Shown one piece after another: positions 10,501-52,355 of a DNA stretch of 64,000 nt. Source of the DNA: a virus; IMG/VR virus record IMGVR_UViG_3300027742_000001, positions 27,914 through 91,913 of that record. One strand, 5' to 3'. Below the pieces are notes generated by a model. The model did not search any database and was not told where the DNA came from. It worked only from the letters and a program-made list of their open reading frames with translations. How positions within the stretch are numbered: the stretch's first letter is position 1; every line of letters begins with the position of its first letter. The translations under genes and the position numbers were made by a program.

Positions 10501-11136
10501 TTACCCTTGAAATTTAATTACATTATATAATTTAATAACTCTATTTAACCAACCTTTTTGGAACTTAATATTAGAAGGTTTATATTCCACAGTTTCTAAT
10601 ATATCATCAACCCTTTCAATAAGTAAAGCATAAGCAATCTCTTGTTCAGAAACCTTTGAAAGAACTTTGTCTAAGGCTTTATATGAGTTAGTACCAACAT
10701 AACCATCAACTTCAATATGTTCTTCTTTAGGTAAATTATTATTAATAATTTTTTGTAAGTTCTTACTTATTCTTTTGAAACCAAAAAGAACAGTTCCATC
10801 AGTTATTATTAAACCTAAATTAAAATCAAATCTTTCATAACCATATTTTTTATAATAGTTTGAGTAATAAAAGTCAGTAACTTTATCTTGAAATTCTACA
10901 TTATTAGAGGTTTCTTTATTTATTTCTGCTGTAGAGTATCCTTTATCTAATAAAGAATCTATGTATTCCCAACCTTCCCATTTTGGGTGGAACTTTCTAG
11001 CAATACCTTGTATAGTCATTCCTCCACTATCTTCAGCTATATTAGAATATCCACCTTCAAATTTATTTATAAAAGAGTGTATCTTTTTAAACTTATCTAA
11101 TTGATTTGTGTTTTCAGTATTTTTAGTGTTTTCCAT
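10501..11136 (-). CDS. endolysin, glycoside hydrolase family 108 with peptidoglycan-binding domain
   Basis: EGGYSNIAEDSGGMT catalytic motif, VDGYVGTNS, FQKGWLNRV C-terminus. Confidence 0.92.
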   Translation of the reverse strand: MENTKNTENTNQLDKFKKIHSFINKFEGGYSNIAEDSGGMTIQGIARKFHPKWEGWEYIDSLLDKGYSTAEINKETSNNVEFQDKVTDFYYSNYYKKYGYERFDFNLGLIITDGTVLFGFKRISKNLQKIINNNLPKEEHIEVDGYVGTNSYKALDKVLSKVSEQEIAYALLIERVDDILETVEYKPSNIKFQKGWLNRVIKLYNVIKFQG

Positions 11137-11155: not shown

Positions 11156-12574
11156 CTATCTGTATTTGAAGTTTAGCCCCACTACTCTTATATATTGAGT
11201 ATCTGAATTAAAATCTACTGCTACATAACTTGTATTATCAATACCATTCATTAAATCTGTTATATCAAATTCATTTAAGTAACTATTATTTACAAAAAGT
11301 TGTTTATTAGAAACTGTGTTTTCAGTATCATTATATTGTAATCCTATTCCCGATATACTTACTTCAATATCTGCTTGAATATATTCTGTATTATCAGGTA
11401 ATACAACTATTGTACAAGAAACAATTTCATTAAAATCATTAGGTATTTTAATTATAAAATGAGTATCATTGTTAGAACCTAATCTTTCAACATTCCAATT
11501 ACCTACTTCATAAGCATTTCCATTTTTAGGATACATAAAGAATTCTTTTATATCATTTCTTAAACATATACTTTGTACCTCAAAAGCATTTCCATCAACA
11601 GCAATATAAGGAACATCTCCATCACCTAATAACTTAACAGTTCCACTTGAAACAAAGTCAATAGTATAATCTATTTGGAAAGGGTCTATCATAAATAACA
11701 TTGGGGAGTTTTCTATGTCAATAGTATTATCTCCAATAGTAAAGTCATAACCATTATCTCCATAAATACCATCTGAAATATTTCTCCAAGTAGCTTCATT
11801 TGGTAAATATTTTACAACAACATTTCCATTATTAACAGACTTTAATCTAACAGCTACATTATTAACTGCTTCAACAACTTTTAACTTAATTTTATTTATA
11901 ATAATGTTTGAAGTTGAAGGTAACTCAAAACAACAATCATCTTCCATTTCCGTACTATAATCAGGTTGTAGCATTGTATCAGATACTTTTGCTTCTGTAA
12001 CTAATGTAAAAGGTCTTTCTGAAGAGCCATTTTCTTTATCATAAAGGTGTAAAGGAATTAAATATCTATTACCACTTACATTAGAGTAAACACTTGGAAT
12101 ACTTCCTACCTCAGAAAGTTTAACAGAGTTTCCTACTTCGATACTTGCACTTTGTGACCTAAAGGTACTAGCACTCATAACAGTACCATCATCTAAAACT
12201 TCCATACCCGAATCTTCAAAAGACTCTCCTAAAGCAGACTTAACTGGAATATGATTATTTCTAACACCTATTAACTCAGTTGTACTTCCATCTTGACCTT
12301 TAACAGCTATTACAGAAGATAATTTAGCCCATTCACTTTCTACTCTTGCTTGACTTTCTACAATATTTTCTGTACTTTCAGTATAAACTAATTGAATACT
12401 TAATGAAGAATTATTATCATAACTTGCTAACCATGAAGCATTAGCTAAAGCATAATCATCTCTTTCTGTTTCAGCCTCTTCCTTTGTAGAGCCAACTCCA
12501 CCAAATGAGTTAGGAGATTGTCCTAGGTTAAAAGTATTTAGTTGTATATTTTCTCTTGTTTTATATAAAGGCAT
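11156..12574 (-). CDS. putative virion accessory/fiber protein
   Basis: Beta-rich acidic 472-aa protein in the late operon; no specific family recognised. Confidence 0.55.
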   Translation of the reverse strand: MPLYKTRENIQLNTFNLGQSPNSFGGVGSTKEEAETERDDYALANASWLASYDNNSSLSIQLVYTESTENIVESQARVESEWAKLSSVIAVKGQDGSTTELIGVRNNHIPVKSALGESFEDSGMEVLDDGTVMSASTFRSQSASIEVGNSVKLSEVGSIPSVYSNVSGNRYLIPLHLYDKENGSSERPFTLVTEAKVSDTMLQPDYSTEMEDDCCFELPSTSNIIINKIKLKVVEAVNNVAVRLKSVNNGNVVVKYLPNEATWRNISDGIYGDNGYDFTIGDNTIDIENSPMLFMIDPFQIDYTIDFVSSGTVKLLGDGDVPYIAVDGNAFEVQSICLRNDIKEFFMYPKNGNAYEVGNWNVERLGSNNDTHFIIKIPNDFNEIVSCTIVVLPDNTEYIQADIEVSISGIGLQYNDTENTVSNKQLFVNNSYLNEFDITDLMNGIDNTSYVAVDFNSDTQYIRVVGLNFKYR

Positions 12575-12575
12575 T

Positions 12576-12863
12576 TTAGTTTCCTTTCACAACTATTGTA
12601 TCTGTTCCTTCAGAATATAACCAAAGACTTTCCCCTGAGTTATTTTCATAAATTCTATCTTCATAGTCTTCATTATCTAAAGCTGTATCACTTAATATCC
12701 AAAATGGTTGATTTGAACTTGTATTAGGTATAGCAGTAGGAATATCTGTTCCTTCATAAGCCCAAATTCTAGTTCTACCTAGTGTTCTTACTTGATAATT
12801 TAAATCTGTTGTTGCTACTAATGTCCAAGTATCTTTTGGAATTTCTAAACTTGTATACGCCAT
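12576..12863 (-). CDS. small putative virion protein
   Basis: Beta-rich 95-aa protein (IPKDTWTLV...LWLYS) coupled to the 472-aa gene. Confidence 0.55.
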   Translation of the reverse strand: MAYTSLEIPKDTWTLVATTDLNYQVRTLGRTRIWAYEGTDIPTAIPNTSSNQPFWILSDTALDNEDYEDRIYENNSGESLWLYSEGTDTIVVKGN

Positions 12864-12889: not shown

Positions 12890-13108
12890 CTATTTACCAC
12901 ATTCTTCTAATTGTAATGATAATTTATATTGTTTTATCATCCAATCATTTACCTCTGAATCTTTTAAATCAAGAATCTTATTTGTAACTTCACTTGAAGG
13001 AATGGGATAAGTAGGGCATATACTATTTATTTTCACCCCACACCCTACTAACATCATCAATACTGATATTAGACTCAGATATTTTATTATATTCTTTAAG
13101 CTTTTCAT
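12890..13108 (-). CDS. o-spanin (Rz1-like lipoprotein)
   Basis: Signal peptide with lipobox LVGC and Pro-rich segment; overlaps the i-spanin in another frame. Confidence 0.8.
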   Translation of the reverse strand: MKSLKNIIKYLSLISVLMMLVGCGVKINSICPTYPIPSSEVTNKILDLKDSEVNDWMIKQYKLSLQLEECGK

Positions 13109-13226
13109 TATCTTCCCTTAATTGTTCGTTTTCGGTATCTTGTTTAGCACTTCTCCAAACAAACAAAAAGGGTAAAACCTCTTTAAGTATATCAAACATT
13201 GTACTTATTAATTTTACCCAATCCAT
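13023..13226 (-). CDS. i-spanin (Rz-like)
   Basis: N-terminal hydrophobic segment plus coiled coil; 3' end overlaps the o-spanin. Confidence 0.7.
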   Translation of the reverse strand: MDWVKLISTMFDILKEVLPFLFVWRSAKQDTENEQLREDNEKLKEYNKISESNISIDDVSRVWGENK

Positions 13227-13442: not shown

Positions 13443-13901
13443 TTAATCACACCAAGTTTTAACTTTCTTACCACCGTAGTATTCTATTGCTAAGTTATTC
13501 TTTATTAACTCTTTTGTTAAAGAAACTTTTCCACAATAAGGTTCGGCAACTATTCTAAAATACTTACCTCTTTGGACTTTCTTTAAAATAATACTTTCTT
13601 TACATTGTTTTAAAAAGTTATATGTAAAGTGCATAGCTACTAAAGACATTTCTTTTTCATAAGAGCATTTAGCACCTCTCTTTTCGGGAGTATCTACACC
13701 AAACACTCTTATTGAAATATTATTACCAATTAAGTTAGGGAAAGAGTTTATATTAACTCTAAAAGTATCTCCGTCATATACAGATAAGATTTTATTTACT
13801 TTAATATCTTTATATATTTGTTTCCCTAAAGTGTTGCTTGGTAAGAATATCAATAGTAATATAATTAATATACTACTTAACAGCTTTCTCAGCACTTGCA
13901 C
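13443..13901 (-). CDS. thermonuclease (SNase-like) with signal peptide/membrane anchor
   Basis: VYDGDTF, IRVFGVDTPE, GKYFRIVA, LIKNNLA motifs; hydrophobic N-terminus. Confidence 0.92.
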   Translation of the reverse strand: MQVLRKLLSSILIILLLIFLPSNTLGKQIYKDIKVNKILSVYDGDTFRVNINSFPNLIGNNISIRVFGVDTPEKRGAKCSYEKEMSLVAMHFTYNFLKQCKESIILKKVQRGKYFRIVAEPYCGKVSLTKELIKNNLAIEYYGGKKVKTWCD

Positions 13902-14205
13902 CTACATTCTCAATTTGACCAAGTTTACTTTGAATAAGAGTTTCGATTGAATCACCATATTTTTCAATAACTTTTGGGTCAATTTTATCAATGTATTCTT
14001 TTGCTGTTGCCATTTTTCCTGAGTACTCTATATTCTCAATTTTATTTTTAGCATAAGCCTCTGCAATTTCCTCTGCATAAGATATAGCATTAACAATTAA
14101 TTTCTCAATATCTTCATTTTCAATTTTATCTTTAGCTAATATAACTAAATATCCAAACCCTACACTAAATAGTATTCCAACTATTGTTAATAATAATACT
14201 TCCAT
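13873..14205 (-). CDS. holin, LL-H-like
   Basis: One N-terminal TM, then AISYAEE..GKMATAKEYI...IETLIQS, the LL-H holin pattern. Confidence 0.65.
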   Translation of the reverse strand: MEVLLLTIVGILFSVGFGYLVILAKDKIENEDIEKLIVNAISYAEEIAEAYAKNKIENIEYSGKMATAKEYIDKIDPKVIEKYGDSIETLIQSKLGQIENVGASAEKAVK

Positions 14206-14239
14206 TTTATTTCCTTTTATTTTATTTGTTTAATATTTT

Positions 14240-14965
14240 TTAATACTGTAACTTATTTTTGTCACTTTCCTCAAGAACCTTTTGAAAATCTCTTATGAAC
14301 TCGGTTTCATAATCACTTAATAAAACTTTTAAAGAATCCATTTTAATATTCTTTCTTAAATTAGAAAACAATATTGTACTTACATCTTCAATAAATTTAT
14401 CTTCTAAATAACTTTTCCTAAAATAATTACTTAGAACACCAATCTTTGAGCTAAACTTACTTAGTTTACTATTGAAGTAAAGTACTCTTCTTTGTACATC
14501 TGATTTAATCTTCTTTTTACAGTTAGTTATGTTTTTATCTTTAATACATTCTTGGGGATACCTTGCTGTTAAGAGTTTTTCATAATAAGATAATTCAACA
14601 GAATGGTGTACCTTTAACATATCTGTCATAATAATTACTGCTTGTTCATTATCTAAAGTAACTTTACCTACACTATCTCTTATAAGTTCTATTCTATTAT
14701 CAATGTACTCAAAACTTCTTTCATAATTCTCTTGTAAATTATTTAAAGACCACCAAAGCACAGCTACTATGACAGACATTTCAGCAGTTTTTCTAGCACC
14801 CCACCATATTTGAGACTGTTTTTTATCTTTTTCTTTTTTCTTTTCAACTTGCTCAATTATATTATTTAACATATCTTCTAATAATATATGGTGGTCTTCT
14901 TTTTTCTCTTGGGCTTTTGATAAGTTGAATTTTTCATATTCTGTTATGTTATCTATTTCAGTCAT
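14240..14965 (-). CDS. single-pass membrane protein (T4 T-holin-like topology)
   Basis: Charged N-terminal segment of about 60 aa, one hydrophobic segment (MSVIVAVLWWSL), ~165-aa C-terminal domain with two Cys. Confidence 0.5.
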   Translation of the reverse strand: MTEIDNITEYEKFNLSKAQEKKEDHHILLEDMLNNIIEQVEKKKEKDKKQSQIWWGARKTAEMSVIVAVLWWSLNNLQENYERSFEYIDNRIELIRDSVGKVTLDNEQAVIIMTDMLKVHHSVELSYYEKLLTARYPQECIKDKNITNCKKKIKSDVQRRVLYFNSKLSKFSSKIGVLSNYFRKSYLEDKFIEDVSTILFSNLRKNIKMDSLKVLLSDYETEFIRDFQKVLEESDKNKLQY

Positions 14966-14977
14966 ATTAAGCCTTAA

Positions 14978-15463
14978 TTATATTATTTTTAGTAAGATTT
15001 GTTGAATTGCCTCATATGCTTGTCTATGTATGACTGTTTCTTTTAAAGTTTTTGTTTCAATAAGTTCCCATTCTCTATTAGTAAATATTGTAATTAAGTC
15101 TTGAATAATGTTTCTTATTTCAAGGGGTTTAATATGAATTCTTCTTATACAAGGAAACTTTTCTAATTCATCTTTAAGTTGTTCATATGCACTACATACT
15201 ATAAAAGCTGTTTGCATTTGTAACTTAGATATTTCTTTTATAAGCTCTATTCCATTGACATTAGGCATTTTCATGTCTGTTACAACAACCTTTATAGGTT
15301 TATTACTATTAAGTCTTTCCTTAAAAATATCTAATGCAACTTTTCCATCCTCAGCAGTAACTACATTAAAACCTATTGTTCTAAGTTGCTCTGCTGTTTT
15401 CTCTCTTATTAATACTTCATCTTCAACTAAAAGGATTTCAGTACTTGTTGTTTCTATAATCAT
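14978..15463 (-). CDS. stand-alone response regulator receiver (CheY-like REC) protein
   Basis: ILLVEDE acidic pocket, VTDMKMPNVNG (D63), CSAY (S91), IKP (K112); no output domain. Confidence 0.93.
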   Translation of the reverse strand: MIIETTSTEILLVEDEVLIREKTAEQLRTIGFNVVTAEDGKVALDIFKERLNSNKPIKVVVTDMKMPNVNGIELIKEISKLQMQTAFIVCSAYEQLKDELEKFPCIRRIHIKPLEIRNIIQDLITIFTNREWELIETKTLKETVIHRQAYEAIQQILLKII

Positions 15464-15487: not shown

Positions 15488-15700
15488 TTACTCAGAAGGT
15501 TCAACATAATCTAATCCTTTAACATCAATATCCCAATATATTAAGTCAAACTCTCCTGCTGGATTAGGTGTATCAGAAATACAAGTACAAGCACTCCCAT
15601 TAAATAAAACCACTTCAGGGGTATAGTATCTTTTACCTGAATCACATCTACCTTTTATTGTACAATCTTTTCTTGCTCTAACATGATTTGCATAAGACAT
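15488..15700 (-). CDS. small Cys-containing hypothetical protein
   Basis: 70 aa, coupled to the fiber chaperone; resembles small carbohydrate-binding-type modules (Y...VV.FNG...C.....GEFD...W). Confidence 0.55.
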   Translation of the reverse strand: MSYANHVRARKDCTIKGRCDSGKRYYTPEVVLFNGSACTCISDTPNPAGEFDLIYWDIDVKGLDYVEPSE

Positions 15701-15703
15701 TTA

Positions 15704-16252
15704 TTACTCCTCTAGTCCAAATATTTCTTCAAATTTTTCTTGCTTAAGTGTTTCTGCATATGTCAATATCTCTTGGAGTTTAATTTTTGTTAACTGAATC
15801 CAATTATCCCCCTCTTTCCAAGGAATATATTCATTTGTTTCATTCCAACCATTCATTTTTTGATTAAGTTTTAGAAGATTTTCTGTTGTAACTTCTATGT
15901 TTACTGTATCACTAAATGGATAGTCTTCTATATCTTCGTTACAATATTTATCATAAGTTATATACTTGTCAGATTTTCCTTTCTGAGTTTTTATAATTTT
16001 TTCTCTTTTTGTCTCATTAAAAATAATAGAATTTGTTTCATCATCCCATTCCCAAGATTCTCTATATTCTGTTGGTATTTCAGTATGTTCTACTATGTGA
16101 TATTTTACATACTCAGGCTGTTTATAAGTCAAAGCTAAATCATCTAATGTTTCAAAGTAATCATTCCAATTACTATTTGGAGTTGAGATTGAAACTGACT
16201 TATTTATTTCTCCATTAATTACTTCTTCGTTTACATATACTATTACTTGCAT
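15704..16252 (-). CDS. tail fiber assembly chaperone-like protein
   Basis: Directly downstream of the fiber; IP.EYRESWEWD and IPWK..DNWIQLT (DUF4376-like) patterns. Confidence 0.65.
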   Translation of the reverse strand: MQVIVYVNEEVINGEINKSVSISTPNSNWNDYFETLDDLALTYKQPEYVKYHIVEHTEIPTEYRESWEWDDETNSIIFNETKREKIIKTQKGKSDKYITYDKYCNEDIEDYPFSDTVNIEVTTENLLKLNQKMNGWNETNEYIPWKEGDNWIQLTKIKLQEILTYAETLKQEKFEEIFGLEE

Positions 16253-16261
16253 TTTATCTCC

Positions 16262-17092
16262 TTAACACACAAACATTACGTTTATATTATTAGCATCACC
16301 AGCTCCTGATGATTGACCTGTTACAATTCTACATTGTGTAGTTGTTTTTAAAGATGGAGCATTCCCTAGTCCTGTACTTTTTAGCCCAAACGATGAAGGA
16401 GAATCATCTTCATTACAACCCGATACAGCATAATCAGCAGTAGGTAAAGCTGTTGCCATATTTATTGTATAATCTCCTGTTCCATTATCTGTAATACTTG
16501 CTACGTTTCCATTATTTCTGATAGCAACTACACCTATACCATTAAAGTTTACCCATGCTCTAATTGCATATATTGGTGCTGTTCCACTTGCATTTAAGGC
16601 TGTTTTTGCTCTTTCATCATTTGTAGTCCATGTAGTCTCTTCGGGTTTATCTTCATATTCTAGTTTACCACTAGATGTCTTATATACTAATATCCTATCA
16701 TTTGCAATATTAGTATCATCTATCTCTTTATCTTTTACTCCCCCTAAAATAATAGAATAGTTTGGTACTGTTGCTATAATATTAGAACCACTTGTTATAC
16801 TTGAAGTTGAAAATTGAATACTAGCCCCATTTAAAGAATCATCTATTATCTTGAAGTTTGTGTCTATAAATTCTGAAGATGAGGATTCTGCTAATTCATC
16901 AATAGCACTTTTTATATTATTACTTGACAACCCACTTGTTGTATTATCATATTCAATATTACTTGCAACTGTGGTACTATCAGTACCTAAACTATCTTCA
17001 ATATATTGTCTAAAATCCTCAATATATGTTTTAAATTGACCTTGGGTTACATCATCTCTCCCAAGGTTATCTGCTTCTATTAATGTACTCAT
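16262..17092 (-). CDS. tail fiber / receptor-binding protein
   Basis: ASNIEYDNTTSGL..NIKSAIDELA repeat; C-terminal RAWVNFNG...NVASITDNGTGDYTINM...ADYAV fiber domain. Confidence 0.8.
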   Translation of the reverse strand: MSTLIEADNLGRDDVTQGQFKTYIEDFRQYIEDSLGTDSTTVASNIEYDNTTSGLSSNNIKSAIDELAESSSSEFIDTNFKIIDDSLNGASIQFSTSSITSGSNIIATVPNYSIILGGVKDKEIDDTNIANDRILVYKTSSGKLEYEDKPEETTWTTNDERAKTALNASGTAPIYAIRAWVNFNGIGVVAIRNNGNVASITDNGTGDYTINMATALPTADYAVSGCNEDDSPSSFGLKSTGLGNAPSLKTTTQCRIVTGQSSGAGDANNINVMFVC

Positions 17093-17132
17093 ATATTTCC
17101 TTTCATTAATACTTTTTAATTACTTAATTAAA

Positions 17133-20100
17133 CTAATTATTAATATACCCTTTTAATCGTATATCTACTAAACCTTCTACTTCACTACCTAAATCATCAA
17201 AACATTTTAAAGTAGCACTTGTATTGGTTTTACTTATTACTTCTACTCGTGTAGCTGTACTTCCTATAAAACTTTGTAGAGTTGCTACTACATTTTTTAA
17301 ATTAGTTATATACTTAGTGTTTATGGTAGTACCTCCTATTAAGATATTTATATCCTCTAAACTTTCATCAATATCTTCTACATCTACAATAATTTTTAAT
17401 GCAGTTATACTTGGTCTAACTGTTCCCTCAATATAACTAACTCTAACTTCATATTGTCTAGTATATTGAACAGGGAAACCTCCTGTATATAAATTCCAAC
17501 CACTTTCTTCATACATCATATCTGAATCTGAACCATAAAAATTAAATACATCATTAGTATACATTGATAAAGGATAATACTCTCGATACTCTATTTTTTG
17601 ACTTGCTGTACCTGAATACTCTATTAAAGCTGTTCCACTTCCATCAGGTATAAAAGAACCAATATAATACATAGGCTCAAATAATCCTTGATAAAAGTTC
17701 TCTCCATTATTTTTATCATAAAAAATATCTGAATCTAAATTATAATAAAAATATGCTGTTGAAGCTTCTGCTAATAAATCATTATTTGGTTGAACAACCC
17801 CTCCATAGATTTCTCCAATAAAACCTTCAGCATGATAATCTTTTTCATAAATAAGATTATCAATAAGAGTTTCTCCTTGGTTAAACTTAATATATTTTAC
17901 ATTTAAACTTTCATTTCCATATACATCAACAGCTTTTATAAGTAAGTTATACTGACCTTGAACTTTTGTAATATCGGCTTTATAAGGTGAGGTTTTAAGT
18001 ATTCCTTCATGTATTTTAGTAGCAGTATTCCAATTTAAAGAATCCCCTACTTGATATTTAATAATATAACCACTTAAGTCAGGTGGCTTATTAATAATAT
18101 CAAATACTAAAGTTTTAACCTCATTAGGTCTTCCACTAATTGTAAATATATCTACATCAGGAGGTAAAATATCATTGCCACTAACTGTATAACTTTGTTC
18201 AATAAAGTTACTTGGATTACCTATTTCTTGAATAAATATTCTATACCTATTTTCAATAAGTCCTGTATTTTCTGATATATAAGAACTCCCTTTTACATTT
18301 TTTCCTAAGTAAATTCTATTATCAGGAATATTAGGTAAAGGAGTTTCATCTTCACTAACAAAATCAGGGATAGCATAGATATTATAGGTACTTGTAGTAA
18401 TTGCTGTCCAAGTAAATGTTAAAGTAATATTTGGGATACCAGCACTTGAAATATTCACATCTTCTGATATATTAAAAGTAAGCAACTCATTTGCAACTTC
18501 TAAAGAAGGAGTTATTGAGGTAATTAAATCATTATTATAATTAAAGTCTAAAATACTTGGGTTATAATCTGTTCCAGTAAACTTTGTACTTAATTCTTTT
18601 CCAGTTCTTTTTACTTCAGTTAATCTTACTAAAAGAGCTTCATTATTATTCTCTCCAAAGATATAACTATTATAAACTTCTATATCAGAAGTATTAGGTA
18701 AAGGTATTGTATAAGTATCTGTTAAATCAGTATCCTCAATATAATAATCTGTAAAAGTATTATCTTGACTTTGTATCTTTAAAACATATACCTTATCAGA
18801 AGTTAAAGTAACAGGTTCTTCTAAAGTAACTTCTGAAGTATCTACTTCTTGAATTCTACCACCATTACCCCATAAAGGAACATCATTTTGAATAGCAACT
18901 ATATCACCTACTTCACAAGTAACTCCTTTAATATCACTTTCCCAAGTGACTGTTCTTCTTTGGTACTTTGTAGTAGCTAACATATATCTACCAAATACAA
19001 TAGCTTCTGCTTTAGTAGTAATACCAACAGCATCTACTGTTGAGGTTTTAGGTGTAACTTTAGTATCATTTAAATCTTTATCAAGAATGGTTACAGCATT
19101 AAGTTCATTTCTAATATCTTCATCAGGATATTGTATTTCTAACTCAGTTGCTAAATCTGATAAAGGAGTATAGCTTATTTGGAAACTTTCTTTTTTAATA
19201 TCTCCAACATTAAACATATTTGTAATAGTTTGTATTCCATCAAAAACACATGTATACTTATTACCCCTAAGTAGTATTTGACCTCTACCTAACTTACCTA
19301 CCTTTTGACAAGCATCCCAAGGATTTGTTAGAGTATCAAAAGTTCCATTAAAGTTTAATTGTAAAGGATGTCCTAACTCTGTTAAGGTAATAAAATCTAT
19401 ACTAGCAAAATCTAATAAGAAATATATGTTAGTAATATTTGTGTCATTAAAATCTGAATTATAATCTTCAAAGGTGAATAAATAAAACTCTCCACCAACA
19501 TCTACACTATCAGTAATATCAATCAACCCATTATAAGAATATAATTCTCCATCATCCTTAGTTAGAGTAATTTGTGATAAACCTCTATTATATGTAGATA
19601 CTTCAATAGAAGTAATTTCTTGAATTATCTCAGATTTATAAACTTTTAATATATTCTCACTAGAATTATAAGTAAGTCTATCTGTACTAAAGGTCTCATC
19701 AGAACTGATAATAGTTTCTTCTCTTATATGTTCTAAATCACAGAAACTAGCCCATTCAACAAATCTATCATAATCAATTTGAGAAGGTTTTATTTTAGCC
19801 CCATAGAAAGGATTAGTTAAAATATCATAACATACCCATGCTGGGTTATTATTTCTCGCTGTTATACTTTCAGTATAAATATCATTAGTATATAATGTCA
19901 AATCTTTTCTAGTTACTTTTGTAGTAATAGTTGGTATAGAACCCTCAATATGCTCAGTTGCTTTTAATTTTAAACCTAACTGTGCGATACCTCCATAATT
20001 AATATCTGTTGTATTTATCTCCTCAATAAAGGAAACTTGCATAGTGGATTTAATATATATTGAACTAGGTATAGAACTCAATCTAGTGACTTTTACTTCA

Positions 20101-21515
20101 TATTGCCCTAATTGTAAGGTTTCGTTTGAAAATATAGAACTTACATTAGGCTCTATACTAAAACTTATTGCTGAAGTTGAATTTCCTGAGTAGCTTAAAA
20201 CTTCAGAATCCCCTATAAATATAGTTCTATAACTAATTCTATTTTCACTTTGTAACTCACCTTCAGTATATATAGGTTGATACTCACAGGTATCGTCTGT
20301 ACCACACATATTTGGAGTAGGGTTACTTATAGGAAAGGTGGAAGAATTATACTCTTTCCAATCTGTCCAATAAGAAATATATCTTGAGTTCCAATATGTA
20401 TCTGTTGCATCCCTCTCATATATAGGATAACTAACAAAAACACTATATTGTTTTTGATATTTAGGTTCTTTAATATAAGTCCACTCAGTTTCTCCAACTA
20501 ATCTATATCCTATACTATAATTTACTGAGTAAGTATTATAATTACCATTTGTAGTACTATAACTATAGAGACCATTTGGAAAAGAAAAATGTAATTTAAA
20601 GCTATCAATATTATCTGATTCAGTAGTAAATATATAAGGTTCATTATAATCTAAATTTCTGATAATATTCCCATTATTAAAAGTTGTATCATCAAATCCA
20701 TTCATAACTTCTTGTTCAAAAGTACCCCTAACTTGTTTAAAATATCCATCGCTTGTATCACTAATAAAACTATTATAAGGTTGCCCATTTACATAAATAT
20801 CAGCAGAATTTATTTCCTCAATTTCTCCGTAACATAAAGCTATTTGTAAAGATAACCAATCATCACTATTCTCATAATATTGTGATTTATTAATTTCTGT
20901 CCCACCTAGAACATGAGTACCATATAATACTGGTGTAGGTGAATTTACATCTCTATTAGTAGATATTCCGTCCCAAGAATATGTTTTAGAATCTGTCATA
21001 TTATTAGACATATTTGCATCAGCATTTGGGTCACTTGGTGCTAACATTCTACTTATTAGCATCATACCACCAACAACAACTGCAAAAGCTACTACATAAG
21101 CTAAAGCTATGGCAATAGCTGAGGTTGCGGCGAAATAAGATATAATAGCACTAGCAATATACCCTACTGCCTCCCACTCTTGGTAAGGAAAATAAACTAT
21201 AATATCTTTTTCTTGAACAATAATACTTTCTTGTTCTTCTTTTTCTTTAATAAGTTTACCATTATAAATAATACAATAATTAGTTTCATCATATTCACTT
21301 GTCTGAACATATTCTATTAAAGGTTTCCCATGTAAAGCTGTTCTTTTTTTATTTATACTTAGTTTAAATGGATTAGGAATTTCTGTTATAAAAACTGTAC
21401 CAAAAGAAACTTTGTTAATATTTAAGTTTTTAATACTTTCTTTATAAGTATCTCTTATTTCAACAAAAGCTATTGAAGAAGGTACTACTTGTTTAGCTTC
21501 TTTGTCTTTACTCAT
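17133..21515 (-). CDS. tail tip / central fiber protein (lambda gpI-gpJ-like, TipJ)
   Basis: TYSWDG..PTPVLYGT..GGT, ALCYGEI, NNPAWVCYDILT..YG, LNFNG.FD, CEVGDIV, fibronectin-like C-terminal region. Confidence 0.9.
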   Translation of the reverse strand: MSKDKEAKQVVPSSIAFVEIRDTYKESIKNLNINKVSFGTVFITEIPNPFKLSINKKRTALHGKPLIEYVQTSEYDETNYCIIYNGKLIKEKEEQESIIVQEKDIIVYFPYQEWEAVGYIASAIISYFAATSAIAIALAYVVAFAVVVGGMMLISRMLAPSDPNADANMSNNMTDSKTYSWDGISTNRDVNSPTPVLYGTHVLGGTEINKSQYYENSDDWLSLQIALCYGEIEEINSADIYVNGQPYNSFISDTSDGYFKQVRGTFEQEVMNGFDDTTFNNGNIIRNLDYNEPYIFTTESDNIDSFKLHFSFPNGLYSYSTTNGNYNTYSVNYSIGYRLVGETEWTYIKEPKYQKQYSVFVSYPIYERDATDTYWNSRYISYWTDWKEYNSSTFPISNPTPNMCGTDDTCEYQPIYTEGELQSENRISYRTIFIGDSEVLSYSGNSTSAISFSIEPNVSSIFSNETLQLGQYEVKVTRLSSIPSSIYIKSTMQVSFIEEINTTDINYGGIAQLGLKLKATEHIEGSIPTITTKVTRKDLTLYTNDIYTESITARNNNPAWVCYDILTNPFYGAKIKPSQIDYDRFVEWASFCDLEHIREETIISSDETFSTDRLTYNSSENILKVYKSEIIQEITSIEVSTYNRGLSQITLTKDDGELYSYNGLIDITDSVDVGGEFYLFTFEDYNSDFNDTNITNIYFLLDFASIDFITLTELGHPLQLNFNGTFDTLTNPWDACQKVGKLGRGQILLRGNKYTCVFDGIQTITNMFNVGDIKKESFQISYTPLSDLATELEIQYPDEDIRNELNAVTILDKDLNDTKVTPKTSTVDAVGITTKAEAIVFGRYMLATTKYQRRTVTWESDIKGVTCEVGDIVAIQNDVPLWGNGGRIQEVDTSEVTLEEPVTLTSDKVYVLKIQSQDNTFTDYYIEDTDLTDTYTIPLPNTSDIEVYNSYIFGENNNEALLVRLTEVKRTGKELSTKFTGTDYNPSILDFNYNNDLITSITPSLEVANELLTFNISEDVNISSAGIPNITLTFTWTAITTSTYNIYAIPDFVSEDETPLPNIPDNRIYLGKNVKGSSYISENTGLIENRYRIFIQEIGNPSNFIEQSYTVSGNDILPPDVDIFTISGRPNEVKTLVFDIINKPPDLSGYIIKYQVGDSLNWNTATKIHEGILKTSPYKADITKVQGQYNLLIKAVDVYGNESLNVKYIKFNQGETLIDNLIYEKDYHAEGFIGEIYGGVVQPNNDLLAEASTAYFYYNLDSDIFYDKNNGENFYQGLFEPMYYIGSFIPDGSGTALIEYSGTASQKIEYREYYPLSMYTNDVFNFYGSDSDMMYEESGWNLYTGGFPVQYTRQYEVRVSYIEGTVRPSITALKIIVDVEDIDESLEDINILIGGTTINTKYITNLKNVVATLQSFIGSTATRVEVISKTNTSATLKCFDDLGSEVEGLVDIRLKGYINN

Positions 21516-39123: not shown

Positions 39124-40578
39124 CTAAGCTACTATAATTGTATTTTTTCTTATATATCTATCGAATGTATATACAATGTATCTTGCTGTATCTACATACT
39201 CGAAGTGTGTTTCTAAAATATCTCTGTCATAGTTAACTGTAACAGTTCCATTTATTTCTTTAAATTGTGCGAAGTCCCATTGTCTAATAACTTCTGTTAG
39301 TTTGTGGTCAATGTAAACTGTTGAAGCAACTTCAGGAGTTCCCTCTAAATGTTCATTTAATCTATCAAACCCTTCTTTTCTAGCATTTTTAGCTTTCATA
39401 ATAGGCATACCATAATCAATATATCCTATTTTAAGAAGTTCGGGTGAGGTTGGGTCTCCAAGATAAATTATATTAGATTCACTTATGTTAAATTCTTTTA
39501 TAAGTTTATCTCTTATCTTAATACCTTCTTCATATAAGTCCCTAGTAAGTCTATTCTTAGCATATGTCCCATCAATAAAATAATAAGTACTAATTCTTTC
39601 ATCATATAAAGCAAATAAACCAGCATTACCATCTGACTGTCCATAATCATATGCTATAACTAAGTATAAGTCATCTCTATTTTTAAGATGTTCTATATTT
39701 CTAACATTTATAACGTGCTTTTGTTCATAGAAATTACTTAATACTTTTGTTCCACCATTATCAAACTCAAGTAAATATTCCCTTCGGAATTTACTATCAG
39801 ACATTTTCTTTCTATCTGATTCAACAATATCAGGTGATACAAGTGGATTTGAGTAAACATCATATCTTGAATAAACATAAGAATTAAACTCAGGGTCTTT
39901 ATTTTCAGCTTTAGCATAAATAACACCAGCTGGGGATTGTAGTTTACCGAGTCGAGGTGTACTAAATATTGCTATTTTACCATATTTAACTAAACTATCT
40001 TGGTAAGTTCCATAAGTAGCCATAGTAGGTATAATAGCATCAAGTAATTCTTGTTGAATAATAGGATTAATAAGAAAGAACTCATCAAGAATAAGTAAAG
40101 TAAGTTCAGTCCCTACAACCCTTGCTTCATAAGTTGTTTCTGAAGAAATTATTAAGGTGCTAATTTTACCATTGATTTCTATTTCAATAGTTTGTTCTTG
40201 TTTTAACCCTTTAACTTTACCTTTTAAAGCTGGTATTGAGTTAAGACCATTAAGTATTGTTTTGAAATGTTCTTTTGCCCTTTTAAGTCCCATTGTAATA
40301 ATAGCAACTCTAGCATTAGGTGTAAGTAACTCTGCGATAGCAACATCATCAGCCACAAATGACTTTCCCCATCTTCTAGAACAAAGAGCTACATAAATAT
40401 CCCACTTGTGTCTATTTTCTGCAAGAAAGTAACTAGCAAGTTCTTGTTGTCCTTCGTGTAAAGTATGTCCTAACATTTCAGCAACTTGTTTTGGATTAAT
40501 TAGCCCACAAGTTTCTTGATATTCAAGAACATTCTTAGGGACTAATCTTTCAAAGGCTTTCGTATCTTTTGTTTCCAT
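39124..40578 (-). CDS. terL: terminase large subunit
   Basis: CSRRWGKS Walker A, LLILDE Walker B, STP coupling motif, FRREYLLEF, AYDYG nuclease Asp, DTARY. Confidence 0.93.
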   Translation of the reverse strand: METKDTKAFERLVPKNVLEYQETCGLINPKQVAEMLGHTLHEGQQELASYFLAENRHKWDIYVALCSRRWGKSFVADDVAIAELLTPNARVAIITMGLKRAKEHFKTILNGLNSIPALKGKVKGLKQEQTIEIEINGKISTLIISSETTYEARVVGTELTLLILDEFFLINPIIQQELLDAIIPTMATYGTYQDSLVKYGKIAIFSTPRLGKLQSPAGVIYAKAENKDPEFNSYVYSRYDVYSNPLVSPDIVESDRKKMSDSKFRREYLLEFDNGGTKVLSNFYEQKHVINVRNIEHLKNRDDLYLVIAYDYGQSDGNAGLFALYDERISTYYFIDGTYAKNRLTRDLYEEGIKIRDKLIKEFNISESNIIYLGDPTSPELLKIGYIDYGMPIMKAKNARKEGFDRLNEHLEGTPEVASTVYIDHKLTEVIRQWDFAQFKEINGTVTVNYDRDILETHFEYVDTARYIVYTFDRYIRKNTIIVA

Positions 40579-43579: not shown

Positions 43580-43751
43580 AGATTTAACACCTAGGTTTTT
43601 ACCTATAAAATGGTTTGGTTGGCAATTAATTATGACAAAAGGTTCTTATGCTTATTATGAAAATAAATATACAACTAAAAGAGGTTATAAGAAAATACAC
43701 TTAGGGTTTAGTGCTTTAGATATTGTTTGGTTAAATGGGGATAAAAAATAA
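43563..43751 (+). CDS. hypothetical protein
   Basis: RBS; coupled ORF. Confidence 0.65.
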   Translation: MKEIYEDLTPRFLPIKWFGWQLIMTKGSYAYYENKYTTKRGYKKIHLGFSALDIVWLNGDKK

Positions 43752-43927
43752 TGATTACTATTAGTATTATTTGGGTTTTTTGTTGGTTACTTATTGAGGT
43801 GCTTACCTTTACAGAGTTTACAAGGTTTGGAATATATTGGGAAGATAAAGATATTAGACAGATTATGTTTCTTACTCCTTTTTTAGTATTAATACTTTTA
43901 TGTATTATATGGGTGGGTAGAAGATAA
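43751..43927 (+). CDS. small membrane protein (58 aa, not in the ORF track)
   Basis: TAATG coupling at both ends; two hydrophobic segments. Confidence 0.6.
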   Translation: MITISIIWVFCWLLIEVLTFTEFTRFGIYWEDKDIRQIMFLTPFLVLILLCIIWVGRR

Positions 43928-51294: not shown

Positions 51295-51702
51295 ATGAAA
51301 TTTGTTAACACATTAGAATATTTTGATTTTGAAGATTATATTAAAACAAATGGTACTAATTATGCTAGAAATTTTGACTTATATACTTTATTTACTAATG
51401 AAGGACATGAGTTTACTCAAAATCAATTTGCAGAATTATTCTTTGCTAGAAGAAATGGTAAGACTTATTTAGCTTGTTATGAGTTATTTATTAAAATGTA
51501 TAGAGAACTAAAAGTTCCAAATACTAAGGGTAATTCAATTGAAAATACTTTCAGAGATACTAAAAGATTTACTTTTTTTGTAAGACAATTTAGAGATATT
51601 TTTGGTAATGGTTTTGAGGGTATTGTATCTTTGGAATATAAGAATCCTCATTCTATAAAAATGATAAGATTAGAAAATTATGGAAAGGAGATATATGAAT
51701 AA
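51295..51702 (+). CDS. hypothetical protein with terminase-type P-loop
   Basis: FARRNGKTY. Confidence 0.6.
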   Translation: MKFVNTLEYFDFEDYIKTNGTNYARNFDLYTLFTNEGHEFTQNQFAELFFARRNGKTYLACYELFIKMYRELKVPNTKGNSIENTFRDTKRFTFFVRQFRDIFGNGFEGIVSLEYKNPHSIKMIRLENYGKEIYE

Positions 51703-51931
51703 AGATGAATTAAAAATACTACAACAAGGTTTTTTACAATTAGGTATTAGTGCCTTTATTTATTTACTTTGGGTTATTTTAGGATTTATTTCAGTAATAA
51801 GTATTGGATTTATTATTCAATATAGTCTTGTTTTAATGTGGGTTCAAGGAGCAATTCTTTTATTTACTAACTTAACTGGGATATATTTTAGTTATAATTT
51901 CTTGAAAAATGATATTGAAGGAGAGAATTAA
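51680..51931 (+). CDS. membrane protein
   Basis: Two TM segments; the true start is probably the Met near 51695, after AAGGAG. Confidence 0.65.
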   Translation: MERRYMNKDELKILQQGFLQLGISAFIYLLWVILGFISVISIGFIIQYSLVLMWVQGAILLFTNLTGIYFSYNFLKNDIEGEN

Positions 51932-52173
51932 TGAATAAAAGAAAATTAGCAGTAGTTGAATTAGATTCAGGTTATGAAGGGTTATACCTTTTTGATAAAT
52001 TAGTTAATGAAGGTAATCCCTTAAATGAGGGTAATGAAAGATTTTTATACTTCATTGATTTATTAGATAATTATGAGTTAGATATATCTGATATACATTT
52101 TGGTTTTGCTTCTGATTTAGAGGAATTTCCCATGTTTTTATCTGAAATAGAAGGTATATTATGGGAGAATTAA
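51931..52173 (+). CDS. hypothetical protein
   Basis: RBS; coupled ORF. Confidence 0.7.
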   Translation: MNKRKLAVVELDSGYEGLYLFDKLVNEGNPLNEGNERFLYFIDLLDNYELDISDIHFGFASDLEEFPMFLSEIEGILWEN

Positions 52174-52355
52174 TGAATAAGTTTATTAATTGGTTTTATA
52201 AAAATTTAGTTCATTTATTTGGTGTCTTAGGAGTAGTTTTATCAGTATTATCTGTTATAACTACTTTCTTAGGTAGTTTTTTATTAACATTTTGTTTATT
52301 AAGTATTGCTCTTGGGAGTTTATATTTAGATTCATTTGTTAAAAGTAAAGTTTAA
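52173..52355 (+). CDS. small membrane protein
   Basis: Two TM segments; TAATG coupling. Confidence 0.6.
   Translation: MNKFINWFYKNLVHLFGVLGVVLSVLSVITTFLGSFLLTFCLLSIALGSLYLDSFVKSKV

What the first reader, a model, noticed from the sequence alone, without database searches (positions are those of the whole stretch)
13873..15463. Orphan phosphorylatable response regulator wired into the lysis cassette (candidate host-signal-controlled lysis switch)
Seen: between the tail fiber genes and the holin, the late operon encodes a 161-aa receiver domain. All phosphorylation residues are intact (E14-D15-E16, D63, S91, K112-P113), and there is only a ~35-aa tail with no DNA-binding output. It lies 12 bp upstream of a 241-aa single-pass membrane protein, followed by an LL-H-like holin, nuclease, spanins and endolysin. 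No histidine kinase is present in the window. Established: single-domain receivers (CheY, DivK, Spo0F) act by protein-protein contact or as phosphate sinks, and holin timing is set by protein partners (T4 T with RI/RIII). Inference: the phage may read a host kinase or acetyl-phosphate signal and couple it to lysis timing through the cytoplasmic N-terminus of the neighbouring membrane protein, or may jam host signalling or motility late in infection.
Basis: partly seen in the sequence, partly recalled or inferred. Interest (0 to 1): 0.88.

Follow-up and report, generated by a model that had tools for sequence, protein, structure and literature searches.

The report
Phage receiver domain beside lysis genes
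A complete, uncultured 92-kb phage carries an intact bacterial-type phospho-receiver protein with no kinase of its own, inherited together with a helical partner protein and a holin-like gene. This fits host phospho-signalling feeding into cell bursting, but nothing here proves it.

Summary
The 161-aa ORF at 14978-15463(-) is a real receiver (REC) domain: Pfam PF00072 at 62.6 bits, an AlphaFold (βα)5 model, and all five active-site residues present and invariant in five homologues. The whole 91.9-kb phage has no histidine kinase or Hpt. REC lies 12 nt upstream of a 241-aa all-helical protein and a 110-aa LL-H-like holin candidate. All three genes are found only in a small clade, and they co-occur in every relative with enough sequence, although the upstream flank differs.

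- The 241-aa protein's hydrophobic segment is weak (hydropathy 0.85), though remote relatives have a strong TM at that place.
- The LL-H assignment is below Pfam's threshold.
- The lysis genes are interrupted by other genes.

Co-folding REC with the 241-aa protein gave only weak support (0.42; best control 0.00).

I checked three cultured Alteromonas phages (V22, A5, PB15). They carry unrelated stand-alone RECs between membrane-tethered coiled-coil proteins, holin-like genes and endolysins. One uncultured siphovirus has a REC outside any lysis context. Earlier notes of this scan report the same pattern on other DNA. Published papers annotate such genes only as 'CheY-like/PhoB AMGs'.

A lysis-linked role is plausible (about 0.35) but untested.

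The parts
14978..15463 (-). Stand-alone receiver (REC) domain protein, 161 aa. It has a (βα)5 core (residues 9-129) plus a C-terminal helix (residues 140-160). The active-site quintet is E14/D15, D63, S91, K112.
   Evidence: Pfam PF00072 at 62.6 bits. AF2 pLDDT 79. Foldseek top hits are receiver domains, with 3jte at E 2.7e-9. The quintet is invariant in 6 sequences.
14240..14965 (-). 241-aa all-helical partner protein. It has a charged N-terminal part of about 55 aa, a short weakly hydrophobic segment (about residues 53-75), and a helical domain of about 165 aa.
   Evidence: No Pfam or PHROG hit. Hydropathy maximum 0.85. AF2 pLDDT 48, all helices. Close homologues occur only on REC-bearing contigs. 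About 20 remote homologues have an N-terminal TM plus the helical domain.
13873..14205 (-). 110-aa holin candidate of LL-H type, with an N-terminal TM helix and a hydrophilic helical C-terminal part.
   Evidence: Hydropathy 2.46 at residues 4-24. Atlas score 0.92 to PF09682 clusters. Weak PF09682 hits in 4 of 6 members. It is the only small TM protein in the late operon apart from the nuclease and the lipoprotein.
13443..13901 (-). Staphylococcal-nuclease-like endonuclease with an N-terminal signal or anchor sequence.
   Evidence: PF00565 at 28.8 bits and phrog_452. Hydropathy 2.31 at the N-terminus.
13023..13226 (-). 67-aa i-spanin candidate (weak).
   Evidence: It overlaps the lipoprotein gene by 86 nt in another frame. 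Hydropathy 1.47 at the N-terminus. No family hit.
12890..13108 (-). 72-aa lipoprotein, an o-spanin candidate.
   Evidence: Lipobox LVGC after a hydrophobic leader. Weak lipoprotein-signal hits.
10501..11136 (-). Endolysin (GH108 plus a peptidoglycan-binding domain), the last gene of the leftward late operon.
   Evidence: PF05838 at 50 bits, PF09374 at 26.4 bits, and phrog_315 endolysin.
15488..16252 (-). Two ORFs of unknown function (70 and 182 aa) between the tail fibre and REC.
   Evidence: No hit in Pfam, PHROGs, NCBIfam or PADLOC.
16262..21515 (-). Tail fibre (276 aa) and central tail fibre J-like protein (1460 aa), upstream in the same operon.
   Evidence: phrog_11355 and phrog_31.

Best explanation
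The phage makes, late in infection and from the same transcript as its lysis genes, a true single-domain response regulator.

Proposed mechanism:
- Having no kinase of its own, the receiver is phosphorylated on D63 by a host donor (a host histidine kinase or Hpt, or acetyl phosphate).
- In one phosphorylation state it binds the co-translated 241-aa helical, membrane-associated protein. The binding uses the strongly conserved β4-α4-β5 face and the C-terminal helix.
- That pair modulates when the LL-H-type holin fires, like an antiholin or holin accessory. Lysis timing then depends on the host's phospho-signalling or energy state.

Shown: the REC fold and active site, the absence of a phage kinase, tight gene coupling, and co-inheritance of the three genes.

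Inferred: phosphorylation, binding, and any effect on the holin.
For: - REC identity and intact quintet. The five-residue definition of a true receiver is from PMC12632262.
- No HK or Hpt in the complete genome.
- There is a 12-nt gap with its own RBS, and no leftward terminator was found between 28000 and 9500.
- REC, the 241-aa protein and the 110-aa protein co-occur on the 27,320-, 45,071- and 2,675-bp contigs, and REC with the 241-aa protein on the 3,345-bp contig. The order REC, 253-aa, 111-aa is seen directly in L006, and REC followed by the partner in L005.
- The upstream neighbours in L005-L007 (DUF7338- and DUF1353-like genes) are absent from this phage, so the block is kept across a variable junction.
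- Invariant residues cluster in residues 84-113 (21 of 30) against 3 of 14 in α1. This is my count.
- Co-fold of REC with the 241-aa protein: weak support, score 0.42, best of 3 controls 0.00. Marks of 0.60 or under were reached by 7 of 80 solved complexes and by both mismatches that passed. The runs share at least 58% of contacts and the partner's pLDDT is at least 66.
- Independent analogues, checked here. V22 has amidase, weak-TM/coil protein, REC, TM/coil protein, 2-TM protein. A5 (a different phage family) has the same four-gene block followed by an endolysin. PB15 has a 4-TM protein, a coil with a C-terminal TM, REC, and an M15 peptidase overlapping REC.
- Precedents. A single-domain regulator acts by binding a membrane enzyme (PMC12802240, abstract). 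The LytSR two-component system is tied to antiholin-like lrgAB and to acetyl phosphate (PMC4830213).
Against: - All close homologues are 48-75% identical members of one small clade. Conserved order may therefore be simple relatedness.
- The lysis genes are not a compact cassette: a nuclease, a 63-aa ORF, and ORFs of 95 and 472 aa are interspersed.
- The holin assignment is below Pfam's threshold.
- The partner's membrane segment is weak, and its model is poor at pLDDT 48.
- The Alteromonas-phage partners show no sequence similarity to the 241-aa or 110-aa families. V22, A5 and PB15 RECs are related to one another, so they are one lineage and not three independent cases.
- A REC-only gene in siphovirus MW202601 lies between the terminase and DNA-polymerase genes, not among lysis genes.
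- Two-TM small proteins in the early regions could be the real holin.
Confidence: 0.35

Rival explanations
1. Host-signalling interference. The receiver is a decoy or phosphate sink that drains or blocks a host histidine kinase or phosphorelay late in infection (for example envelope stress, motility or a defence-linked pathway). Its place next to lysis genes is incidental, because the region after tail-fibre genes collects accessory genes.
For: - No phage kinase or Hpt.
- The intact quintet is what a sink or decoy needs.
- Helix α1, the usual kinase-specificity helix, varies among relatives (3 of 14 positions invariant), as expected if hosts differ.
- The flank upstream of REC is variable.
- A REC-only gene exists outside lysis genes in MW202601.
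- Papers treat the Alteromonas phage genes as signalling AMGs (PMC7289586; PMC8228385).
Against: - It does not explain strict co-inheritance and near-coupled translation with the 241-aa protein.
- It does not explain the repeated pairing of phage RECs with membrane-tethered coiled-coil proteins and holin-like genes.
- Late expression is an odd time for host takeover.
- No bacterial REC is closer than about 38% identity, so no specific host pathway is mimicked.
Confidence: 0.28
2. REC and the 241-aa protein form a split response regulator whose output is a late envelope function other than holin timing. Examples are superinfection exclusion, control of the exported nuclease, or the spanin step.
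For: - The pair is kept together, and the co-fold gave a weak pass (0.42 against 0.00).
- The remote relatives of the 241-aa domain are small TM-anchored proteins of unknown role.
- A secreted or anchored nuclease and a lipoprotein lie directly downstream.
Against: - No family, fold or context information exists for the 241-aa domain.
- No specific link to the nuclease or the lipoprotein was found.
- The Alteromonas-phage blocks pair REC with holin-like and endolysin genes, not nucleases.
Confidence: 0.2
3. Phosphorylation-independent scaffold. The receiver fold serves only as a binding module, and D63 is never phosphorylated in infection.
For: [quoted passage not shown]
- No cognate kinase is encoded.
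Against: All five catalytic residues and the K-P motif are invariant over 34-42% sequence divergence (58-66% identity). This argues for selection on phosphoryl chemistry.
Confidence: 0.1
4. Promoter switch. The phage's own promoters carry direct repeats, TTAAG-N6-TTAA(T/G), placed 11 nt before the -10 element. This geometry recalls binding sites of OmpR/PhoB/CtrA-type regulators. A late receiver could drain phosphate from the host regulator that drives them and so shut early or middle transcription.
For: - Five sites in the window share the repeat and a -10 at fixed spacing: 1964, 6107, 8438, 33691(-) and 63697.
- TTAA-N7-TTAA is the CtrA box, which other phages use to follow host state (PMC9437464).
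Against: - The bare repeat is not enriched over shuffles (7 found against 3.9 expected; 13 of 100 shuffles reach 7).
- The host is unknown.
- Nothing links REC to these sites.
- This is a thought, not a result.
Confidence: 0.05

Closest known systems
Single-domain response regulators (CheY, Spo0F, DivK, CpdR, Myxococcus EpsW)
   Same: It is a REC domain alone, with a complete active-site quintet and a short C-terminal extension but no DNA-binding or enzymatic output. Such proteins act by protein contact or phosphotransfer. EpsW binds a membrane enzyme (PMC12802240, seen).
   Different: It is encoded by a virulent-type phage that has no kinase or Hpt, and it is expressed with the tail and lysis genes. 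There is no equivalog match: the best NCBIfam hits (RssB, AtoC, CckA-REC, CpdR) are far below their cut-offs. The nearest bacterial RECs are at most about 38% identical.
Stand-alone receivers of Alteromonas phages V22 (ORF30), A5 (gp11) and PB15 ('response regulator'). Published annotations call them 'CheY-like' or 'hybrid HK-RR', and R8W G48 'PhoB AMG'.
   Same: These are REC-only phage genes downstream of tail-fibre genes. They sit between membrane-tethered coiled-coil proteins, holin-like TM proteins and an endolysin. None has been characterised (PMC7289586; PMC8228385).
   Different: The similarity to the window's REC is only at fold level (Foldseek E 1.9e-6, 18% identity to the V22 protein; family HMM 6.5 bits). 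Their partner genes are not homologous to the 241-aa or 110-aa proteins. There the small coiled-coil partner precedes REC; here the partner follows it. R8W's context was read only in the paper and not checked on DNA.
T4 lysis inhibition (holin T with antiholins RI and RIII)
   Same: The idea is the same: soluble or tethered partners bind a holin's non-membrane domains and postpone firing in response to a signal. The 241-aa protein has a T-like layout of a charged N-terminal part, one hydrophobic segment and a large C-terminal domain.
   Different: There is no sequence or profile similarity to any solved structure or Pfam family. The hydrophobic segment is weak. The T4 signal is superinfection, not phosphorylation (from general knowledge).
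Bacterial LytSR with LrgAB/CidAB (two-component control of holin- and antiholin-like proteins)
   Same: It links phosphotransfer, including acetyl phosphate, to holin/antiholin-like membrane proteins (PMC4830213).
   Different: LytR is a DNA-binding regulator that acts on transcription. The phage protein has no DNA-binding domain, so it would have to act after translation.
REC domains of REC-PP2C (SpoIIE-type) regulators and RssB. These are the closest by sequence and structure.
   Same: The best PDB matches are 3jte (E 2.5e-14) and P. aeruginosa RssB 3eq2/3f7a. The alignment runs into the post-REC linker helix. The metagenomic hits that cover residues 9-161 are REC-PP2C and NtrC-type proteins.
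   Different: The phage protein stops after the linker-like helix. No phosphatase, AAA+ or other output follows.

Membership tests
Response-regulator receiver domain (PF00072), true receiver as opposed to pseudo-receiver | Profile match above the curated threshold | tested here: met
   62.6 bits against a cut-off of 30.2, E 4.6e-17. The whole-genome scan gave 62.9 bits.
Response-regulator receiver domain (PF00072), true receiver as opposed to pseudo-receiver | (βα)5 fold | tested here: met
   The AF2 model has pLDDT 79 with β1-α1 through β5-α5 in order. Foldseek to solved receivers gives TM by target 0.8-0.89 and E down to 2.7e-9.
Response-regulator receiver domain (PF00072), true receiver as opposed to pseudo-receiver | All five active-site residues present: two acidic (DD), the phospho-acceptor D, T/S, and K (definition in PMC12632262) | tested here: met
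   E14/D15, D63, S91 and K112 (plus P113) are present. They are invariant in 6 family members. They lie at the ends of β1, β3, β4 and β5 of the model. The definition was read.
Response-regulator receiver domain (PF00072), true receiver as opposed to pseudo-receiver | Actual phosphorylation on the conserved Asp | not testable with these tools
   This needs Phos-tag or radiolabelling with acetyl phosphate, phosphoramidate or host kinases.
Single-domain (stand-alone) response regulator | No output domain after REC | tested here: met
   The protein has 161 aa, and Pfam finds only REC. All close homologues have 158-166 aa. Residues 130-161 form one predicted helix. Longer fused forms were not searched for.
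Classical two-component system | Cognate histidine kinase or Hpt encoded with the regulator | tested here: not met
   There is no HATPase_c, HisKA or Hpt in the complete 91,913-bp genome, and the control genomes rang.
Holin_LLH (PF09682), for the 110-aa neighbour | Profile match | tested here: inconclusive
   The window protein has no hit. Four of six members match only weakly, with best E 0.032. The atlas feature score is 0.92 with 195 shared features, and 23 of 30 nearest clusters carry PF09682.
Holin_LLH (PF09682), for the 110-aa neighbour | About 100-120 aa with one N-terminal TM helix and a hydrophilic C-terminal part | tested here: met
   110 aa, with hydropathy 2.46 at residues 4-24 and the rest hydrophilic.
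Holin_LLH (PF09682), for the 110-aa neighbour | Holin activity (membrane permeabilisation that releases the endolysin) | not testable with these tools
   This needs complementation of a holin-defective lysis cassette.
T4 holin T-like protein, for the 241-aa neighbour | Sequence or profile similarity to holin T | tested here: not met
   No Pfam hit at E <= 0.1. The profile finds nothing relevant in the PDB.
T4 holin T-like protein, for the 241-aa neighbour | One clear TM helix between a cytoplasmic N-terminal part and a large C-terminal domain | tested here: inconclusive
   Hydropathy is only 0.85. Remote homologues have a strong TM at the aligned position.
Two-component spanin (i-spanin and o-spanin) | A small lipoprotein gene overlapping or embedded in a gene for a TM-anchored protein | tested here: inconclusive
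   There is an LVGC lipobox and an 86-nt out-of-frame overlap. The 67-aa partner is short, and its N-terminal hydropathy is borderline at 1.47.

The most novel reading that the evidence does not exclude
Stand-alone receiver domains paired with membrane-tethered helical proteins are a recurrent, undescribed regulatory layer of phage lysis. The phage reads the host's phosphoryl-donor pool or a host kinase, and REC~P holds or releases the holin through its partner. On this reading the window shows a new, sequence-unrelated lineage of the device (REC, a 241-aa partner and an LL-H-type holin) in a distant T5-like siphovirus.
Probability: 0.25. Interest if true: 0.85.

Novelty: new variant of a known kind. 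Interest (0 to 1): 0.62.

Why it matters
Known controls of lysis timing are holin-intrinsic clocks, antiholins and superinfection signals. No phage is known to gate lysis by phosphotransfer.

If these receivers do so, phages would be tuning burst time to host physiology through the host's own signalling currency. The cultured Alteromonas phages V22, A5 and PB15 would then offer a direct experimental system.

If instead the receiver is a decoy for host kinases, it is a compact, kinase-less tool by which phages silence two-component signalling. Either outcome gives a function to genes that are now annotated only as 'CheY-like/PhoB AMGs'.

Tried and rejected

**Searches that found nothing**
- Megablast of 12 kb against GenBank phages: no match.
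- IMG/VR scans with the REC, 241-aa and 110-aa alignments and with two remote homologues: no relatives. The profile of remote homologues was too divergent for a pattern scan.
- tblastn of the 241-aa protein and of remote homologue P0030 against phages: nothing.
- GTDB genomes: only generic RECs at 38% identity or less, with no prophage relative and no host clue. There are no tRNAs in the window.
- The 241-aa domain has no PHROG, Pfam, NCBIfam, PADLOC or PDB relative. Its AF2 model was too poor (pLDDT 48) for a fold search.

**Results that carry no weight**
- PADLOC hits of REC (PD-T4-6, PDC-M60B; 18.5 bits) are just REC-to-REC similarity.
- Most 'phage' tblastn hits to REC are host DNA in fragmentary records or full two-component regulators, for example Burkholderia vB_E427.
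- The co-fold of REC with the 241-aa protein returned only 'weak support'.

**Literature**
- Searches found no paper on a phage receiver that controls lysis.
Full report
**Setting.** The window is bases 27914-91913 of a 91,913-bp IMG/VR virus record with direct terminal repeats, rated 100% complete. GC content is about 27% throughout, and the three genes of interest do not deviate. Leftward genes from about 41 kb to 10.5 kb form the late block: terminase, portal, head genes, tape measure, minor tail proteins, a J-like central fibre and a tail fibre. The large terminase is only 22-24% identical to those of T5-like phages, so this is a distant T5-like siphovirus. A lipobox lipoprotein suggests a Gram-negative host, but the host is unknown. 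No tRNA, close phage relative or prophage relative was found.

**The observation.**
- The ORF at 14978-15463(-) encodes 161 aa with a Pfam Response_reg match of 62.6 bits, E 4.6e-17.
E14/D15 is the acidic pair, D63 the phospho-acceptor, S91 the T/S position and K112-P113 the lysine.
- In an AlphaFold model built on six family sequences (pLDDT 79), these residues follow β1, β3, β4 and β5 of a canonical (βα)5 fold. One further helix spans residues 140-160 at lower confidence.
- Foldseek places the model among solved receivers. The best match is 3jte, followed by CpxR and RssB. A profile search of PDB sequences agrees.
- By the published definition, a receiver is a 'pseudo-receiver' if any of the five residues is missing (PMC12632262). 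This one is a true receiver.
- There is no HATPase_c, HisKA or Hpt anywhere in the phage.
- The gap to the next gene is 12 nt, and that gene has its own RBS. The consensus scan found no leftward terminator between 28000 and 9500.

**Corrections to the observation.**
- The 241-aa neighbour reaches only 0.85 on a 19-residue Kyte-Doolittle scan. The holin candidate reaches 2.46 and the nuclease leader 2.31. It is therefore not a confident single-pass membrane protein on its own sequence.
- A profile search of 1.8 billion representatives found about 20 remote homologues of its C-terminal 165 aa or so (E 1e-9 to 1e-3). These are 170-212 aa long, and each has a strongly hydrophobic N-terminal helix where the window protein has its weak one. 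Membrane association is therefore plausible but the topology is open.
- The AF2 model of the 241-aa protein is all-helical but poor, at pLDDT 48. No family, defence model or solved structure matches it.
- The 110-aa protein has no Pfam hit itself. Four of six family members touch PF09682 (Holin_LLH) at E 0.032 or worse. The language-model atlas puts it next to PF09682 clusters, with score 0.92 and 195 shared features. It is the only small TM protein of the late operon besides the nuclease and the lipoprotein, so it is the best holin candidate. Two-TM miniproteins in the early regions cannot be excluded.
- The cassette is loose. In order it reads: holin candidate, SNase-like nuclease with a leader, a 63-aa ORF, an overlapped 67-aa and 72-aa lipoprotein pair (spanin candidates), a 95-aa ORF, a 472-aa ORF, and then the GH108 endolysin.
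- Two unknown ORFs (182 and 70 aa) separate REC from the tail fibre.

**Relatives.**
- Among 5.8 billion clustered proteins, REC has five full-length homologues at 58-66% identity and 158-166 aa. The next hits are generic receivers at E > 1e-7.
- The quintet and K-P are invariant. By my count, invariance is densest in residues 84-113 (β4-α4-β5, 21 of 30). It is lowest in α1 (3 of 14).
- In the metagenome loci I could read, L006 shows REC, a 253-aa protein and a 111-aa protein in that order. L005 shows REC followed by the partner.
- Upstream of REC these relatives carry DUF7338- or DUF1353-like genes that do not exist in this phage. The three-gene block therefore persists across a variable junction.
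- This is some evidence for a unit, but the clade is narrow and shared order may be plain ancestry.
- No bacterial genome of GTDB holds a REC closer than about 38% identity. The metagenomic hits that align over residues 9-161 are REC-PP2C and NtrC-type regulators. The C-terminal helix therefore looks like the linker of a multidomain regulator whose output has been lost.

**Direct test of binding.** Co-folding REC with the 241-aa protein, using both alignments, gave 'weak support'. The median score was 0.42 and the best of three controls 0.00. The runs shared at least 58% of contacts, and the partner's pLDDT was at least 66. In the tool's calibration, passes at 0.60 or under came from 7 of 80 solved complexes and from both mismatched pairs that passed. 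This raises my odds a little and no more.

**Does the association with lysis genes recur elsewhere?** Earlier notes of this scan say that receiver genes paired with small membrane-tethered helical proteins occur in the lysis cassettes of many phages, and they name Alteromonas phages. I treated these as leads and checked three records.
- V22 (myovirus, MN877442) reads: tail fibre, chaperone, papain-like amidase, ORF29 (125 aa, glycine-rich weak hydrophobic N-terminus plus coil), REC ORF30 (149 aa), ORF31 (TM plus coil), ORF32 (87 aa, two TM).
- A5 (Schitoviridae, OP481051) has the same four-gene block at 27-45% identity, followed by an endolysin.
- PB15 (siphovirus, KX982260) reads: a four-TM 155-aa protein, a coil with a C-terminal TM, REC, and then an M15 peptidase overlapping the REC stop.
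- These RECs are related to each other but only at fold level to the window's REC. Their partners do not match the 241-aa or 110-aa profiles.
- The window thus shows a second, sequence-unrelated case of the same arrangement.
- As a counter-example, the REC-only gene of siphovirus MW202601 sits between the terminase and the DNA polymerase, away from its M15 peptidase.
- Another hit, Burkholderia vB_E427, is a full regulator beside an efflux gene and is probably host cargo.
- The literature annotates the V22 gene as a 'class II AMG, signaling' (PMC7289586) and the R8W gene as 'PhoB' (PMC8228385). Neither paper tests it or comments on the lysis context. I found no paper on a receiver that controls phage lysis.

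**Mechanism.**
- My best reading (about 0.35) is that REC takes a phosphoryl group from a host donor and, depending on its state, binds the 241-aa partner, which modulates the holin candidate.
- From memory and unchecked here: the residues two positions after D63 (K65; K, V or L in relatives) and two after S91 (Y93, invariant) match Spo0F. That combination is associated with a long-lived phosphoryl group, which would suit a switch better than a fast sink.
- The main rival (about 0.28) is interference with host two-component signalling, with the position being incidental.
- A third reading (about 0.2) keeps the REC-partner module but gives it another late envelope role.
- A phosphorylation-independent scaffold (about 0.1) is disfavoured by the invariant quintet.
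- A speculative link to the phage's own direct-repeat promoters (about 0.05) is noted only as a thought.

**Verdict.** The feature is real and the description largely right. The lysis-switch idea is reasonable and now has comparative backing, but it rests on position, co-inheritance in a small clade and a weak co-fold. It is a new variant of a known kind: a single-domain response regulator, phage-borne and lysis-adjacent. This scan found the same pattern before on other DNA.

Noticed in passing
window 1964, 6107, 8438, 33691(-), 63697 (also 41380): A shared promoter-like motif, TTAAG-N6-TTAA(T/G)-N11-TAtAnT, stands in front of gene blocks. The repeat has a one-helical-turn period and lies where a -35 element would be, like sites of OmpR/PhoB/CtrA-type activators. 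The bare repeat is not enriched over shuffles (7 found against 3.9 expected).
   Followed up: partly
window 13443-13901(-): A staphylococcal-nuclease-like endonuclease with a hydrophobic N-terminal leader lies inside the lysis gene run. Its GTG start overlaps the holin candidate by 29 nt. It may be an exported nuclease released or activated at lysis.
   Followed up: no
window 11156-12863(-): ORFs of 95 and 472 aa (the latter with a weak phrog_20050 hit only) sit between the spanin candidates and the endolysin. They may be a receptor-binding or other virion protein. The 72-aa lipoprotein upstream could then be a T5 Llp-like exclusion lipoprotein instead of an o-spanin.
   Followed up: no
L004:7118-10357 (IMGVR_UViG_3300025715_000009, a 388-kb contig): A huge phage contig encodes a 1079-aa hybrid sensor kinase. 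It has a periplasmic solute-binding-like domain, a TM helix, PAS repeats, a kinase core and a C-terminal receiver.
   Followed up: no
L169:227-613 (MW202601): A REC-only gene (128 aa) of a 46-kb circular siphovirus lies between the terminase and DNA-polymerase genes, outside any lysis context.
   Followed up: partly
L005-L007 upstream of REC: Relatives carry DUF7338-like (221-278 aa, N-terminal TM) and DUF1353-like genes directly upstream of REC. Neither exists in this phage's genome.
   Followed up: partly
window 43751-43927(+), 52161-52355(+), 51680-51931(+): Small proteins with one or two strong TM helices lie in the rightward early or middle regions. They are alternative holin or membrane-effector candidates away from the endolysin.
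   Followed up: no
window 39124-40578(-): The large terminase is only 22-24% identical to those of T5-like phages of Vibrio, Proteus, Salmonella and Escherichia. This is a deep-branching T5-like lineage with a 27% GC genome.
   Followed up: partly
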